A stretch of DNA of 64,000 nt, from the IMG/VR virus record IMGVR_UViG_3300042868_011386, positions 25,458 through 89,457 of that record. The stretch is one strand, 5' to 3'. This stretch comes from a virus. Made by a program: the position numbers and the translations under genes. The notes under the pieces are model-generated. The model worked only from the letters and a program-made list of their open reading frames with translations. It was not told the DNA's origin and made no database searches. Numbering within the stretch: the stretch's first letter is position 1; each line of letters begins with the position of its first letter. Of the stretch, positions 3,364-6,884 are shown one piece after another.

Positions 3364-3642
3364 ATGATATTTTTAATAAAAGTATTTACGTATGTAAATT
3401 GTATTGATTGTTTGCGCCACCTAAAAACTCTCCGCGACTATTGCGATCGTACTCCGACAATTTTAGAAATTGTTGATATTGATAAAGAAGAAAATATACC
3501 TCTTATATTTGAATACAACATAATGGGTATACCGCATACACTATGCTATAATATACGAGGTGAAATTATGCACAGTTTTCCGGGTGTAAAAACTGCAGAA
3601 GAGTTTGATGATATTGTTTATCACCGTATCTGTAATCAATAA
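3364..3642 (+). CDS. Thioredoxin/glutaredoxin-fold protein
   Basis: CxxC (CIDC), VDID, YNIMGIP (cis-Pro loop); 92 aa. Confidence 0.7.
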   Translation: MIFLIKVFTYVNCIDCLRHLKTLRDYCDRTPTILEIVDIDKEENIPLIFEYNIMGIPHTLCYNIRGEIMHSFPGVKTAEEFDDIVYHRICNQ

Positions 3643-5468
3643 CCCATAGCGCTGCCAGTTAATATTGGCATCATCGGAGAAGCATTATTGTTTACGTTGC
3701 TCGTATTAATATTACTTACATTTCCTCCATTATTGTTATTTACAATTACTGTTGGAGCAATATTTGAAATGTTTCCAGCGGTCGCTAACATACTTCCAGA
3801 TGATGCCGGCACCCCTTGCACATTATTTTTCCACTTGAAGTTTGATGCTGCATATTCATCCCATGACCCATAACCCGCAGCCATAGCCTTTTCAGGTTTA
3901 CTTAATTCTGAAAAATTATTTGTAGATACGGCCTTTAATATTTTTTCGGAAGATTCGGTAGTAAGTTTTTCAGCAGTTGGTGTGACACTTTTTTCAGCAG
4001 TTGGTGTGACACTTTTTTCGGAAGATTCGGTAGTAAGTTTTTCAGCAGTTGGTGTGACACTTTTTTCGGAAGATTCAGATTTCTCACTCTTTTTAGTGTT
4101 GTATGCATATTCATATATGCTGTCTGGAACAGACTTTCTAAACCAATATTTTGGATTTGCCATAGAAAGATCTTCATTGGGGTCAGGTAATATTGCTCGT
4201 AGGGCGCTACGTTGCATGTCGTCAATTGAACTTGCAAGACTGTCTGCTGCGCCAGTTATGCTTTCTCCAGCCGAAGAAAATAATGCCCCCAATTTTTCTG
4301 GTAAACTTGCAAAAAAGTCAATAACAATACCCGGCAAATCTCCTATAAATTTACCAATTGTAGCATACATCTCAAACATTGGATCTACTAAATATGTTTT
4401 ATACAAATCAGTAAACGAAAAGCTATCTAAAAATTTGGAAAATTCTGAAAATCCTAGCTTTTCAGATATCCAGGATATTCCATCTTTTACTGAGTCTAAT
4501 AAACTGCCAATCAAGCCATCAAATACACCTACAAGTAATCCTTTTAGACCGCCGATCAAACCACCTTCTTTAAAGCCAGCAATTGCTCCCTTTATTCCGC
4601 CATAGATTCCCATTATTATTGTTAACGGCCAACCTAAAACTTTTAAAAACGGACCGACAATTTTACCCACTGACAAAAGCATTTTTGCAAGGCCTCCCCC
4701 AGCTTTCATTCCAATTTTAAAAAACCGAGACATACTTGAGAATGTTTCGCCTATTACTGAAAATGCTTCGCCAGCAACTCCAACAACACTAGACACAGTC
4801 TTGATTATTGGCGAGTTTCCAAATATAGAAAATACTTTTCCGAGTAGAGTAAATAATTTGCTAGACTTAAACTTATTAATGAGTTCCGCAATCTTTTCTA
4901 TACCAGTAAAAACCCCCTTAAACAATGGAGAGGCCTTTAGCCGAGTTACAATGTTTGTAAAAAATTGACTAATTGCAGAAAAAACGCTGCTAATTTTTTG
5001 AAAAAGTTTTGTTTTTCCAAGAACATTAAACAGCGCAGACGTTAGTTTACCTACAAACCCAACTGCAAAACCAGCTAATAGGGCGGCGGCTGACAATATT
5101 CCGCTAAATATACCACCCGGCATCTTAAACTTAGAGTCTTTGACGGGTGTGCGTGTTCTGTCTGGCCTTAAGCCTCTAAGAGCATCAAGTAATTCGTCAC
5201 GATTTTCACGTTCTTGAAGCTTATTGCCTTCAAGTCGTTTTGCCAAAACTACATTTGATCGTATTAGAATATCAAACTTGTCTTTTAAGTCTGTTGCTAC
5301 ATTTACAAGTCTATCTAAAAAAGTAGGAACCTCTGTAGTGTTTTCACGAGCAGCATTTGACGCAAGCGTAAAGTCATAGTTATCAATGGTATCAAGTATA
5401 AGATCTTGAGACAAGTTTGAGCTTTGTAATTCCTTTACAACTTGTGCTAGTGTTGATTCGTCGTTCAT
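3636..5468 (-). CDS. Tape measure / baseplate hub protein (gp29-like)
   Basis: 610 aa, helical with Gly-rich hydrophobic stretches and an Asn-rich C-terminus; directly follows gp26/gp51. Confidence 0.65.
   Translation of the reverse strand: MNDESTLAQVVKELQSSNLSQDLILDTIDNYDFTLASNAARENTTEVPTFLDRLVNVATDLKDKFDILIRSNVVLAKRLEGNKLQERENRDELLDALRGLRPDRTRTPVKDSKFKMPGGIFSGILSAAALLAGFAVGFVGKLTSALFNVLGKTKLFQKISSVFSAISQFFTNIVTRLKASPLFKGVFTGIEKIAELINKFKSSKLFTLLGKVFSIFGNSPIIKTVSSVVGVAGEAFSVIGETFSSMSRFFKIGMKAGGGLAKMLLSVGKIVGPFLKVLGWPLTIIMGIYGGIKGAIAGFKEGGLIGGLKGLLVGVFDGLIGSLLDSVKDGISWISEKLGFSEFSKFLDSFSFTDLYKTYLVDPMFEMYATIGKFIGDLPGIVIDFFASLPEKLGALFSSAGESITGAADSLASSIDDMQRSALRAILPDPNEDLSMANPKYWFRKSVPDSIYEYAYNTKKSEKSESSEKSVTPTAEKLTTESSEKSVTPTAEKSVTPTAEKLTTESSEKILKAVSTNNFSELSKPEKAMAAGYGSWDEYAASNFKWKNNVQGVPASSGSMLATAGNISNIAPTVIVNNNNGGNVSNINTSNVNNNASPMMPILTGSAMGY
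3941..4076 (-). repeat. Exact in-frame micro-duplications in the tape measure gene
   Basis: Units ttttcagcagttggtgtgacact x3 and ttttttcggaagattc x3; encode SEKSVTPTAEKLTTES-type repeats. Confidence 0.9.
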
Positions 5469-5647
5469 TTTTTACGTTTTTCTTCTTCTTCCTGTATGTG
5501 TTTTATTAACATTGCGATATAAATTTCCCTCTCCCACGGCAGCATATTATCTAATTCAGTTAAACTATATTTGTGATGTTGTATTAATGCAAAATTTGTT
5601 TGATAATAATTAGTTAACGATTCATGTGAGAGGGCTATTCGAAAAAA
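5465..5647 (-). CDS. gp51: gp51-like baseplate hub assembly protein; no ATG/GTG/TTG at its N-terminus, probably made by -1 frameshift from gp26; not in the ORF track
   Basis: Manual translation FFRIALSHESLTNYYQTNFALIQHHKYSLTELDNMLPWEREIYIAMLIKHIQEEEEKRKK*, matching the short gp51 family of marine T4-like phages; its stop overlaps the tape measure ATG (ATGA). Confidence 0.8.
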   Translation of the reverse strand, partial: FFRIALSHESLTNYYQTNFALIQHHKYSLTELDNMLPWEREIYIAMLIKHIQEEEEKRKK

Positions 5648-6345
5648 GCCTGCGTTCCTGTAAGAGTAATATTATTTTCTTTTTTACAACCAGTACAATT
5701 AAATTGAAGCGTGTGTTGTAATTTTGGAGAGTTTGATATATACTCTTCAATTTTATTAAGTTGTGCACGATTTAAACTGTTTACAAATGTTAACAGCTCT
5801 TCACGATTTGATTGTGCTGCTGGATAAACTCCGCTTTCGTCAAAAATTGATTCAATTGAAGCAATAAGCATATTTGTTATTGTGTCAACATTGATTTCGG
5901 ATGTGGCTATAATAGAAGACATATCATCAACGCATATATGTCGTAAAATTACTCCAATTTTATCGGTCAACATAATTTTACTATCAACTTGTTGTTTTGG
6001 CCATGTAATTTCGATGTCATCTATGTTTACTGAGACTTCATTGTATGTTTCGCAATAATCACATTTACATTTTATATTGCTAATTTCTCCTACGCTTTTT
6101 GCTCGGAGTTTTAAGAAAATATACTCAAGGTCAAATGATGTTAATTGTTCTGGTTTACAGACATTAAATGTACATGCTCTTATAATATCTTTAATTGCTG
6201 ACATCATTTCGCTAGAATTGTTAGATTCTTGCGCAAGCAATAATATTTTTTCTTCTTTTACGAGGAATGGACGATATTCAATTGACTGCGACGTTGACGG
6301 CACAGTGAGTATATATTTTGGCGATTCAAGTGTTGGTAATGGCAT
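5635..6345 (-). CDS. gp26: Baseplate hub assembly protein gp26
   Basis: MPLPTL..P.Y.L.VPST...YRPFLVKEEKILL, FDLEYIFLKLRAKSVGE, two CxxC pairs, ends G.Q.FF. Confidence 0.88.
   Translation of the reverse strand: MPLPTLESPKYILTVPSTSQSIEYRPFLVKEEKILLLAQESNNSSEMMSAIKDIIRACTFNVCKPEQLTSFDLEYIFLKLRAKSVGEISNIKCKCDYCETYNEVSVNIDDIEITWPKQQVDSKIMLTDKIGVILRHICVDDMSSIIATSEINVDTITNMLIASIESIFDESGVYPAAQSNREELLTFVNSLNRAQLNKIEEYISNSPKLQHTLQFNCTGCKKENNITLTGTQAFFE
5641..5647 (-). other. Candidate -1 ribosomal frameshift heptamer T TTT TTC
   Basis: gp26 ends GCT TTT TTC GAA TAG; the -1 frame reads TTT TTT CGA ATA GCC into the gp51 frame. Confidence 0.65.
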
Positions 6346-6356
6346 AATATTATATA

Positions 6357-6884
6357 TTAGTGTATAATTTTCAATTTATCATAGGTAAATACTACTGTTA
6401 CTTTTTGAATAGTAGATTCACTGTTGTTGTCTAATTCCATGGAGTTTAGAGTAATTGGATAGGCTCCCTGTAGAGTTACTTTATGAACTGCTTTATTTTG
6501 TTCATCTAGTTGAGTAATGCTTATTTCCGTCTTATAGTCACTATAATTAGAAGTTAATAGGTATGAATCAATATCTATTATTTTCTGCATCCATGTGTCT
6601 ATTGCAGTTTTAATAAAATTATTATTAGTTAAAATAAATGTCATTGTAACGTCATCCTCAATATATCCTGTTGGTATTTTTAGTGGTCGACGAGTGCCAA
6701 TGTCATAGTCCAATGTAGTTATTTGTTTTCCAGGAATACTAGTAGTTTCACAAAAATATGGTATATCTCGTGTCGACTCAGATGATCCAGGAATTGCAGC
6801 AAACGTTACGTAAAAGCGATTTGCTTTGGCAATCCCACCATTTCTAATTATAGCAGACTTAAAATCATTTATTGAAGACGACAT
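6357..6884 (-). CDS. Tail tube initiator / tube-fold baseplate protein (gp54-like)
   Basis: GGIAKANRFYV, CETTSIPG, QLD.....V.L..AYP, VTVVFTY motifs of the gp19/gp54 tube fold. Confidence 0.7.
   Translation of the reverse strand: MSSSINDFKSAIIRNGGIAKANRFYVTFAAIPGSSESTRDIPYFCETTSIPGKQITTLDYDIGTRRPLKIPTGYIEDDVTMTFILTNNNFIKTAIDTWMQKIIDIDSYLLTSNYSDYKTEISITQLDEQNKAVHKVTLQGAYPITLNSMELDNNSESTIQKVTVVFTYDKLKIIH

What the first reader, a model, noticed from the sequence alone, without database searches (positions are those of the whole stretch)
5465..6345. Probable -1 programmed frameshift fusing gp26 to gp51, a lambda G/GT-like arrangement in a T4-like phage
Seen: gp26 ends GCT TTT TTC GAA TAG, an X XXY YYZ heptamer one codon before the stop. 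The -1 frame runs straight into a well-conserved gp51-like sequence (SHESLTNYYQTNFALIQHHKYSLTELDNMLPWEREIY). Its first ATG is about 35 codons in, after most of the conserved part, and its stop overlaps the tape measure ATG. Known: lambda-like phages make tail chaperones G and GT by a -1 slip in the gene just before the tape measure gene; T4 gp26 and gp51 are hub assembly factors annotated as separate genes. Inference: gp26 and a gp26-gp51 fusion are the G/GT equivalents here. I do not know of this being described for T4-like phages.
Basis: partly seen in the sequence, partly recalled or inferred. Interest (0 to 1): 0.8.

Follow-up and report, generated by a model that had tools for sequence, protein, structure and literature searches.

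The report
Frameshift joins gp26 to gp51
One tail-assembly gene of this lake-water T4-like phage very probably makes a short and a long protein because some ribosomes slip back one base on a conserved TTTTTTC; phage T4 encodes the same pair as two genes (26 and 51), so the T4 group may not be the exception to the tail-chaperone frameshift rule.

Summary
On the minus strand, the gp26-like gene (5635-6345, Pfam T4_baseplate) ends GCT TTT TTC GAA TAG. The -1 frame then encodes a 58-residue gp51-like peptide with no usable start, and its stop overlaps the ATG of the next, tape-measure-like gene.

Comparative evidence:
- In 84 distinct related junctions the gp51 part is always in the -1 frame.
- 82 of 84 keep a T TTT TTN heptamer, and the two silent T positions are fixed in 83/84 and 84/84.
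- Codon periodicity changes frame exactly at the heptamer.
- 66 of 84 have no ATG before codon 13 of the -1 peptide.

The predicted 293-residue fusion is collinear with full-length T4 gp51, which is a gp26-like domain plus the same C-terminal extension. The first ~90 residues of gp26 model as a tail-assembly-chaperone fold: HK97, YqbN and PLE chaperones are three of the four top hits among 48,161 chains, at modest Z (5-8).

Best reading (about 0.85): a programmed -1 ribosomal frameshift of the lambda G/GT kind. Rivals are transcriptional slippage and re-initiation. No protein or reporter data exist.

I found no paper reporting this, and a 2016 review names T4 as the exception. This scan has reached the same conclusion before on other phage DNA.

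The parts
5635..6345 (-). gp26-like gene (0 frame, 236 aa), the short 'G-like' product; includes the TAG stop at 5635-5637
   Evidence: Pfam PF12322 T4_baseplate E 3.6e-55 and phrog_150 E 5.4e-59. 7874 homologues were found, and the top 120 are nearly all 234-238 aa. AF2 model pLDDT 86.7; residues 1-90 give tail-assembly-chaperone top hits.
5641..5647 (-). Slippery heptamer T TTT TTC (X XXY YYZ in the gp26 frame), one codon before the stop
   Evidence: Read directly. Across 84 distinct related junctions: TTTTTTC 52, TTTTTTT 28, TTTTTTG 1, TTTTTTA 1. The silent positions 0 and 3 are T in 83/84 and 84/84. H_HH.U_UU.Y is among the most efficient -1 motifs in E. coli (PMC4066793).
5465..5641 (-). 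-1 frame extension (58 codons plus TGA), the gp51-like 'T-like' part; the predicted fusion is 235 + 58 = 293 aa
   Evidence: phrog_634 E 1.4e-28, and also phrog_150 profile positions 230-280, directly following where gp26 ends at 233. tblastn finds it in 579 phage records. Conceptual fusions align as one domain across the junction to an HMM of full-length gp51 in 88 of 92 loci.
5656..5659 (-). AGGA, a possible Shine-Dalgarno-like stimulator 8 nt upstream of the heptamer (unproven)
   Evidence: A GGAG, GAGG or AGGA 4-mer lies at -18..-6 in 51 of 84 junctions. It overlaps the codon of an invariant glycine, so selection on the RNA cannot be separated from selection on the protein.
3636..5468 (-). 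Downstream 610-aa gene, probable tape measure (gp29 equivalent); its ATG overlaps the gp51-frame TGA (ATGA)
   Evidence: ORF list and sequence. No Pfam hit, and BLASTP against T4 gp29 is not significant. The Atlas places it near a PF25671 T4_Tape_measure cluster, score 0.94. The gene in the same position in HTVC008M is annotated as a putative tail tape measure. It carries a 24-nt tandem repeat.
6357..6884 (-). Upstream 175-aa tube-fold gene (gp19/gp48/gp54 type), giving the order tube-like, chaperone, tape measure
   Evidence: Pfam Phage_T4_gp19 E 7.9e-08 and phrog_45 'tail tube' E 2.7e-40. The same neighbour is annotated 'baseplate tail tube initiator' or 'tail tube' in Mosig, ValKK3, RL2RES and OLIVR6.

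Best explanation
This is a programmed -1 ribosomal frameshift. Most ribosomes translating the gp26-like gene stop at TAG 5637-5635 and make a 236-aa protein. A minority slip back one base while two tRNA-Phe occupy UUU UUC of U UUU UUC (5647-5641). They continue in the -1 frame for 58 codons and make a 293-aa gp26-gp51 fusion that ends where the tape-measure-like gene starts. The two products correspond to T4 gp26 (short) and T4 gp51 (gp26-like domain plus C-terminal extension). By inference they act as lambda G and GT do: the shared N-terminal chaperone domain holds the tape measure protein, and the extension on the rare long form docks it to the tube or hub initiator. Both probably leave the finished tail. 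Shown here: the signal, its conservation, the collinearity with T4 gp51 and the chaperone-like fold. Inferred: that slippage happens, how efficient it is, and the binding partners.
For: (1) The gp51 segment is in the -1 frame in all 85 loci, and by annotated coordinates in seven more distant phages: Vibrio ValKK3, Pelagibacter HTVC008M, Methylophilales Melnitz, Pseudomonas Cygsa01, Rhizobium RL2RES, Agrobacterium OLIVR6 and Synechococcus MC09. (2) The heptamer T TTT TTN is present in 82 of 84 distinct junctions. gp26 identity to the window falls as low as 36% across these loci. The wobble base before the two Phe codons is T in 83/84 although the residue varies (Ser, Asp, Ala, Asn). The first Phe codon is TTT, never TTC, in 84/84. 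Neighbouring wobble positions carry 0.4 bit or less. That T does not change the protein in either frame under the frameshift model, so it is selected at the RNA level. (3) The low-information codon position moves from frame 0 to frame -1 exactly at the heptamer. (4) The shift window is pinned. The 0-frame stop lies 0-1 codon after the heptamer in 72/84, and a -1-frame stop lies immediately before it in 13/84. (5) There is no ATG up to codon 12 of the -1 peptide in 66/84, and no ATG, GTG or TTG in 46/84. Yet residues 4-11 (hydrophobic-x-L-S-H-D-S-L) are conserved. (6) T4 gp51 is PF12322 (residues 1-201) plus an extension and covers phrog_150 positions 13-280. T4 gp26 covers 14-235. The window's gp26 covers 5-233 and its -1 peptide 230-280. 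Fusions from 88 of 92 loci align as one domain across the junction to a full-length gp51 HMM. (7) The top structural matches for residues 1-90 of gp26, in two independent models, are 3fgx, the HK97 tail assembly chaperone 2ob9, YqbN 3klu and the PLE chaperone 5ir0. Z is 5.0-7.8, against 4.9 or less for the best unrelated rows (5ir0 is named a chaperone in PMC12987554). (8) The gene order is tube-like, gp26/gp51, tape-measure-like. (9) U_UU.U_UU.Y is a high-efficiency -1 motif in E. coli (PMC4066793). (10) Only one PF12322 gene was found in the 89-kb record.
Against: There is no direct evidence that the fusion protein is made: no mass spectrometry, western blot, reporter assay or ribosome profiling. 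No stimulatory RNA structure follows the heptamer in this window (z 0.38), and across relatives a downstream structure is inconsistent (mean z -1.27, 21/84 below -2). The heptamer is not rare in this AT-rich window. The fold matches have Z below 8, which the tool warns can be a common arrangement. The record is only about 53% complete, so a second gp51-type gene elsewhere is not excluded. A few relatives have an ATG at the gp26 stop (ValKK3, RL2RES), and Cygsa01 has the ATG without the heptamer, so coupling may operate in some lineages.
Confidence: 0.85

Rival explanations
1. Transcriptional slippage: RNA polymerase adds one extra U on the T6 run in a fraction of transcripts, and normal translation of those transcripts gives the same gp26-gp51 fusion.
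For: It would equally explain the fixed T at the two silent positions and the -1 frame relation. 28 of 84 junctions have T7. UUUUUUU is avoided in E. coli genes, possibly because of slippage (PMC4066793).
Against: The run is only 6 T in 54 of 84 junctions and never longer than 7; the base before it is never T. By established knowledge, productive slippage in bacteria needs runs of about 8-9 or more, longer than this run and about the length of the RNA-DNA hybrid. The run always sits in the X XXY YYZ phase. One contig from an RNA library spans the site with no inserted or missing base (X8, 5300-6255). That is a weak test, because contigs drop rare variants and the library may contain DNA.
Confidence: 0.07
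2. gp51 is a separate small protein made by its own initiation: either re-initiation after termination at the gp26 stop on a non-standard codon (ATA at 5638-5636), or a start at an internal ATG.
For: Databases annotate it as a separate gene. ValKK3 and RL2RES have an ATG overlapping the gp26 stop, and Cygsa01 has that ATG without the heptamer. The -1 codon overlapping the stop in this window is ATA.
Against: In this window the first ATG is codon 35 of 60, after most of the conserved part, and there is no GTG or TTG. 66 of 84 relatives have no ATG up to codon 12, while residues 4-11 are conserved. The codon over the stop is ATA, CTA, GTA or ATC in different relatives, so it is not a conserved initiator. 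This reading does not explain the fixed silent T before the Phe codons, nor the collinearity of the fusion with full-length T4 gp51.
Confidence: 0.06
3. Artefact or decay: a homopolymer sequencing error or a frameshift mutation has split one gp51-like gene.
For: Eleven or so in-frame fused proteins of 279-300 aa exist in public data.
Against: The same out-of-frame arrangement is found in 84 distinct junctions and 579 phage records, including many cultured and independently sequenced phages. The top 120 of 7874 gp26 homologues nearly all stop at the same place. Each fused form is a singleton seen on one contig, which is what rare homopolymer indels would give. Contigs of other metagenomes show no indel here.
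Confidence: 0.01

Closest known systems
Lambda G/GT and the conserved -1 frameshift of tail assembly chaperone genes in long-tailed phages (Levin 1993 and Xu, Hendrix & Duda 2004, as cited in the review PMC5009743)
   Same: Two overlapping frames lie between a tube-type gene and the tape-measure-type gene. An X XXY YYZ heptamer sits at the 3' end of the first frame. The extension is in the -1 frame and has no start of its own. Short and long products share the N-terminal part. The N-terminal domain models as the fold of the HK97, YqbN and PLE tail assembly chaperones.
   Different: There is no sequence similarity to lambda G or T or to Pfam chaperone families; the protein family is PF12322. 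The short product is larger (236 aa) and carries about 140 extra residues including a four-cysteine zinc-ribbon-like part. The heptamer is U UUU UUC, not G GGA AAG. No downstream structure follows it in this window. The review states the G-T frameshift is conserved 'except T4'.
Phage T4 gp26 (208 aa) and gp51 (249 aa), baseplate hub assembly chaperones (Leiman et al. 2010, PMC3004832)
   Same: Same protein family: PF12322 and phrog_150. T4 gp51 carries the same C-terminal extension (phrog_634) that the -1 frame encodes here. In T4 gp51 is required for assembly but is absent from the particle.
   Different: T4, Aeromonas Aes012 and Shewanella Thanatos-1 encode the two forms as two divergently transcribed paralogous genes with no frameshift. 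There gene 51 lies before genes 27, 28 and 29 rather than directly before the tape measure gene. Here there is one gene plus a slip site.
Short 'gp51' of cyanophages and marine vibriophages (Sullivan et al. 2010, PMC3037559)
   Same: It is the same -1 frame peptide. [quoted passage not shown]
   Different: The paper treats it as a truncated independent gene and does not mention a frameshift. The reading here supplies the missing 200 or so residues from gp26.
E. coli dnaX and IS-element -1 frameshift sites
   Same: A bacterial-type tandem slippage heptamer. U UUU UUC is used by some IS elements (PMC4066793). A purine-rich Shine-Dalgarno-like stretch may lie about 8-10 nt upstream, as in dnaX.
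   Different: No demonstrated stimulators exist here, and the upstream element cannot be separated from an invariant glycine codon.

Membership tests
G/GT-type tail assembly chaperone with programmed -1 frameshift | [quoted passage not shown] | tested here: met
   T TTT TTC at 5647-5641, one codon before TAG. Present in 82 of 84 related junctions.
G/GT-type tail assembly chaperone with programmed -1 frameshift | Conserved -1 frame extension without its own start, with the frame relation kept in relatives | tested here: met
   -1 frame in 85/85 loci plus 7 distant phages. No ATG up to codon 12 in 66/84. Codon periodicity switches at the heptamer.
G/GT-type tail assembly chaperone with programmed -1 frameshift | Lies downstream of a tube-type gene | tested here: met
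   6357-6884(-): Phage_T4_gp19 E 7.9e-08, phrog_45 E 2.7e-40.
G/GT-type tail assembly chaperone with programmed -1 frameshift | Lies immediately upstream of the tape measure gene | tested here: inconclusive
   A 610-aa gene starts at the gp51-frame stop (ATGA). It has no Pfam hit, and BLASTP against T4 gp29 gives E 0.05. The Atlas gives a lead to a PF25671 T4_Tape_measure cluster at 0.94. The gene in the same position in HTVC008M is annotated as a putative tape measure.
G/GT-type tail assembly chaperone with programmed -1 frameshift | Tail-assembly-chaperone fold of the shared N-terminal part | tested here: inconclusive
   In two models the top 4 of 48,161 chains are 3fgx (Z 6.3/7.8), HK97 TAC 2ob9 (6.1/7.0), YqbN 3klu (6.2/7.0) and PLE1 TAC 5ir0 (5.0/5.1). 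Each aligns 80-85 residues, and the next rows score 4.9 or less. The ranking is coherent, but Z is below the tool's caution line of 8. Foldseek found nothing.
G/GT-type tail assembly chaperone with programmed -1 frameshift | Sequence membership in a known chaperone family (lambda G/T or a Pfam Phage_TAC family) | tested here: not met
   Only PF12322 is above threshold in Pfam. A profile search of PDB sequences found no chaperone. So this is analogous, or at most a remote structural relative, and not a sequence-family member.
G/GT-type tail assembly chaperone with programmed -1 frameshift | Both products are made in a fixed ratio, bind the tape measure and tube proteins, and are absent from virions | not testable with these tools
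   Needs protein work. For T4, gp51 is reported absent from the particle (PMC3004832).
T4 gp26/gp51 hub assembly chaperones (PF12322) | T4_baseplate domain | tested here: met
   PF12322 E 3.6e-55, covering 2-219 of 219 profile positions.
T4 gp26/gp51 hub assembly chaperones (PF12322) | gp51-specific C-terminal extension | tested here: met
   The -1 peptide matches phrog_634, E 1.4e-28. tblastn matches the last 50 residues of T4 gp51, E 3.8e-4. In-frame fused database proteins carry PF12322 plus PF28602 by precomputed annotation; I could not look up the name of PF28602.
T4 gp26/gp51 hub assembly chaperones (PF12322) | Two separate genes, 26 and 51 | tested here: not met
   One PF12322 gene in the 89-kb record, which is 53% complete. 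The long form is reachable only through the -1 frame.
Transcriptional slippage site | Homopolymer run of about 8-9 or more | tested here: not met
   The run is 6 T here and 6-7 T in all relatives.

The most novel reading that the evidence does not exclude
The PF12322 proteins are true, very diverged tail assembly chaperones, and the -1 frameshift is the ancestral state across the T4 superfamily (Kyanoviridae, Pelagibacter and Methylophilales myophages, Schizotequatrovirus, and rhizobial T4-like phages). The T4 lineage replaced the frameshift by duplicating the gene into 26 (the G equivalent) and 51 (the GT equivalent). T4 would then not be an exception to the G/GT rule. The long-unknown 'catalytic' role of gp51 would be to load the tape measure gp29 into the hub or tube initiator.
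Probability: 0.55. Interest if true: 0.78.

Novelty: new variant of a known kind. Interest (0 to 1): 0.68.

Why it matters
The G/GT tail-chaperone frameshift is regarded as nearly universal in long-tailed phages 'except T4' (PMC5009743). [quoted passage not shown] The oddly short gp51 of cyanophages was noted in 2010 without explanation (PMC3037559).

If the frameshift is real, it explains three things:
- why cyanophage gp51 looks truncated;
- why gene callers often miss it or start it at arbitrary codons;
- what T4 gp26 and gp51 are, namely the short and long forms of a tape-measure chaperone.

It would also correct the annotation of hundreds of marine and freshwater phage genomes. It makes the function of gp51 directly testable in cultured phages such as T4, KVP40-type vibriophages, cyanophages and HTVC008M.

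Tried and rejected
- **RNA structure 3' of the heptamer in the window:** -9 kcal/mol, z 0.38, so none. Across 84 junctions it is heterogeneous (mean z -1.27). It is strong only in some cyanophages and ValKK3, so it is not a general part of the signal.
- **Upstream Shine-Dalgarno-like element:** present in 51 of 84, but it overlaps an invariant Gly codon, so it cannot be judged.
- **Heptamer frequency in the window:** not above chance, so the single-sequence argument was dropped in favour of the comparative one.
- **Tape-measure identity of the 610-aa gene:** no result from Pfam, NCBIfam or BLASTP against T4 gp29. There is only an Atlas lead.
- **Structure searches:** Foldseek against PDB gave only noise (proteasome subunits, E above 0.1). 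Sequence and profile searches of PDB gave nothing relevant.
- **RNA evidence:** only assembled contigs were available. One RNA-library contig bridges the site without an indel. That shows neither transcription nor absence of rare slipped transcripts.
- **Other look-ups:** PF28602 is not in the local Pfam copy. Xu et al. 2004 is not held.
- **Literature:** ten searches found no report of a gp26/gp51 frameshift. The library lacks most subscription journals, so absence is not proof.
- **ATA initiation:** rejected because that codon is not conserved.
Full report
**What is in the window**

All genes discussed lie on the minus strand. ORF 5635-6345 (236 aa) ends ...ACG CAG GCT TTT TTC GAA TAG. It is a T4_baseplate protein: Pfam PF12322, E 3.6e-55, and phrog_150 'baseplate hub', E 5.4e-59.

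The heptamer T TTT TTC occupies 5647-5641 in the X XXY YYZ phase. The stop follows one codon later.

The -1 frame is open from 5671 to a TGA at 5467-5465. It encodes FFRIALSHESLTNYYQTNFALIQHHKYSLTELDNMLPWEREIY.... This peptide matches phrog_634 'baseplate hub assembly catalyst' (gp51), E 1.4e-28. It also matches positions 230-280 of the gp26 profile phrog_150. The window's gp26 itself ends at position 233 of that profile.

The first ATG in this frame is codon 35 counted from the heptamer. There is no GTG or TTG before it.

The TGA overlaps the ATG of a 610-aa ORF (3636-5468) as ATGA. Upstream lies a tube-fold gene (6357-6884; Phage_T4_gp19 E 7.9e-08, phrog_45 E 2.7e-40). Upstream of that lies a gp2-like DNA end protector. 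No terminator-like site lies on the minus strand between these genes.

By itself the heptamer means little, because TTTTTTY occurs 74 times in this AT-rich window against 86.5 expected.

**Comparative test**

tblastn with the -1 peptide finds it in 579 phage records. They include cyanophages, Pelagibacter and Methylophilales phages, vibriophages, and rhizobial, Aeromonas and Pseudomonas phages.

I fetched 80 loci from IMG/VR with gp26 as query, at 36-94% identity, and 14 annotated phage loci.

In all 85 loci of the first batch the gp51 segment lies in the -1 frame relative to gp26. The homology begins at the T run. The same holds for seven more distant phages: ValKK3, HTVC008M, Melnitz, RL2RES, OLIVR6, MC09 and Cygsa01.

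Among 84 distinct junction contexts:
- The heptamer is TTTTTTC in 52, TTTTTTT in 28, TTTTTTG in 1 and TTTTTTA in 1. The two exceptions are Cygsa01 and one metagenomic contig with TGTTTTC.
- The base before the two Phe codons is a wobble base of a variable residue (Ser, Asp, Ala, Asn), yet it is T in 83/84.
- The first Phe codon is always TTT, never TTC (84/84).
- Neighbouring wobble positions carry 0.4 bit or less.
- Under a frameshift model that first T changes neither protein, so its fixation points to selection on the RNA for tRNA re-pairing.
- The least-conserved codon position moves from frame 0 to frame -1 exactly at the heptamer.
- The 0-frame stop lies 0-1 codon after the heptamer in 72/84, and a -1-frame stop lies immediately before it in 13/84. 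The permitted shift window is therefore the heptamer itself.
- No ATG occurs up to codon 12 of the -1 peptide in 66/84, and no ATG, GTG or TTG in 46/84. Residues 4-11 are nevertheless conserved (L6 72/84, H8 69/84, L11 81/84).

In several database records the peptide is not annotated at all, for example S-WAM1 and S-CAM1. None of the fetched records marks a joined CDS.

**Link to T4**

T4 gene 26 (208 aa) and gene 51 (249 aa) are divergently transcribed.
- Both proteins are full-length PF12322 proteins.
- gp51 has an extra C-terminal part and covers phrog_150 positions 13-280; gp26 covers 14-235.
- They are distant paralogues (BLASTP E 2e-6).
- The last 50 residues of T4 gp51 match the window's -1 peptide (E 3.8e-4).

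I built an HMM from three full-length gp51 proteins (T4, Aes012, Thanatos-1). It aligns as a single domain across the junction of the conceptual -1 fusion in 88 of 92 loci. For the window, HMM positions 13-247 align to residues 21-284 of a 293-aa product.

So the fusion recreates the domain layout of T4 gp51, and the unshifted product corresponds to gp26. This explains the remark of Sullivan et al. 2010 that cyanophage and marine vibriophage gp51 lack the first 200 or so residues (PMC3037559).

Two layouts therefore exist:
- Two genes: T4, Aes012 and Thanatos-1.
- One gene with a slip site: Kyanoviridae, the Pelagibacter and Methylophilales phages, Schizotequatrovirus, RL2RES and OLIVR6.

The window's 89-kb record, about 53% complete, has only one PF12322 gene.

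**Is it a tail assembly chaperone?**

Sequence searches give no link to known chaperone families. Foldseek gives noise.

An all-against-all structural search of 48,161 PDB representatives was run on two AlphaFold models. One was a naturally in-frame fused database protein (pLDDT 86.7). The other was the window's own gp26 (pLDDT 86.7).

| Chain | What it is | Z, fused model | Z, window gp26 |
|---|---|---|---|
| 3fgx | uncharacterised | 6.3 | 7.8 |
| 2ob9 | HK97 tail assembly chaperone | 6.1 | 7.0 |
| 3klu | YqbN | 6.2 | 7.0 |
| 5ir0 | Vibrio PLE1 protein | 5.0 | 5.1 |

These were the top four both times. Each aligns 80-85 residues to residues 1-90 of the model. The best unrelated rows score 4.9 or less.

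From my own knowledge, yqbN sits before the tape-measure gene of the B. subtilis skin prophage. The PLE1 protein 5ir0 is called a tail assembly chaperone in PMC12987554. The lactococcal p2 ORF12 structure (3d8l), which from my own knowledge is a tape-measure chaperone, appears at Z 3.0.

The Z values are below the tool's caution line of 8, so I treat this as supportive, not proven. The functional coherence of the ranking is hard to get by chance.

The rest of gp26 (residues ~90-235) includes two cysteine pairs and gives weak zinc-ribbon matches.

**Downstream gene**

The 610-aa protein has no Pfam or NCBIfam hit, and BLASTP against T4 gp29 is not significant. The leads for a tape measure are:
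- its size (610 aa against 590 in T4);
- its position;
- a 24-nt tandem repeat;
- a language-model neighbour cluster that is 100% PF25671 T4_Tape_measure, score 0.94;
- the annotation of the HTVC008M counterpart.

I call it a probable tape measure.

**Mechanism and rivals**

U_UU.U_UU.Y belongs to the most efficient class of -1 heptamers in E. coli, and some IS elements use it (PMC4066793). Both tRNAs are tRNA-Phe and can re-pair perfectly.

No downstream structure exists in this window. Some relatives (S-WAM1, P-SSM2, ValKK3) have strong hairpins right after the heptamer. A purine-rich AGGA/GAGG lies about 8-10 nt upstream in 51 of 84, but it overlaps an invariant glycine codon. The nearby stop may help ('shifty stop', established knowledge). 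That is inference.

Transcriptional slippage would give the same protein and the same conservation pattern. But the run is only 6-7 T, never longer, and always in the heptamer phase. One RNA-library contig crosses it with no indel (weak evidence).

Independent initiation fails in most relatives for lack of a start codon. It also does not explain the fixed silent T. It may operate in Cygsa01, which has TAATG and no heptamer.

Sequencing error is excluded by the number of independent genomes. The few in-frame fused proteins in public data (279-300 aa) are each a singleton on one contig. They look like homopolymer indels.

The top 120 of 7874 gp26 homologues nearly all end at the same place. That suggests selection keeps both products.

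**Novelty**

Ten full-text searches found no paper describing this frameshift. The Atkins et al. [quoted passage not shown] The library lacks most subscription journals, so prior description cannot be excluded.

Within this scan the same conclusion was reached earlier on other phage genomes. My tests here were done independently before I read those notes, and they agree.

**Verdict**

The most likely mechanism is a programmed -1 ribosomal frameshift (0.85). It is a new variant of a known kind of system: the known G/GT logic, carried by a different protein family, in the phage group that was thought to lack it. Direct protein evidence is still missing.

Noticed in passing
window 3965-4072: A 24-nt tandem repeat, 4.5 copies, 76% matches, lies inside the 610-aa tape-measure-like gene and encodes repeated SEKSVTPTAEK-type units. 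Such repeats could vary tail length between strains.
   Followed up: partly
window 6052-6069 and 5686-5697 (minus strand; gp26 residues C93/C95/C98 and C217/C220): gp26 carries two cysteine clusters far apart in sequence. The model brings them together, and the region gives weak zinc-ribbon matches (LysW/ArgX, ZitP, NrdR, Z about 3). This is a probable zinc-binding module that lambda G-type chaperones lack.
   Followed up: partly
L089 (Pseudomonas phage Cygsa01) 1470-1500: This relative has lost the T run (AGC ATT TTC ACC TAA). It has an ATG overlapping the gp26 stop (TAATG) at the start of the gp51 frame. It may make gp51 as a free peptide by translational coupling. ValKK3 and RL2RES have both a heptamer and such an ATG.
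   Followed up: partly
L001 (S-WAM1), L003 (P-SSM2), L086 (ValKK3), just 3' of the heptamer: Strong hairpins start 0-5 nt after the heptamer in some relatives: S-WAM1 -27 kcal/mol (z -7.3), P-SSM2 z -4.0, ValKK3 z -3.8. The window and its near relatives have none. Frameshift stimulators seem to differ between lineages.
   Followed up: partly
P0122, P0128-P0133, P0135, P0139, P0142, P0144 (public metagenome proteins): These are rare in-frame gp26-gp51 fusions of 279-300 aa, each a singleton on one contig. In several the junction reads exactly as the predicted frameshift product (e.g. ...SFFLIALSH...). They are probably homopolymer indels, but natural constitutive fusions are possible.
   Followed up: partly
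L002, L087, L088, L090, L093 (Mosig, HTVC008M, Melnitz, RL2RES, OLIVR6): In these phages one or two small unannotated-function ORFs (about 40-140 aa) lie between gp51 and the long tape-measure-like gene. In the window the two genes abut directly.
   Followed up: no
window 5300-6255: A 967-nt contig from a freshwater metatranscriptome library (run X8, 25 mismatches, no gaps) covers the end of the tape-measure-like gene, gp51 and most of gp26. The phage or a close relative is present in lake-water samples of several studies.
   Followed up: partly
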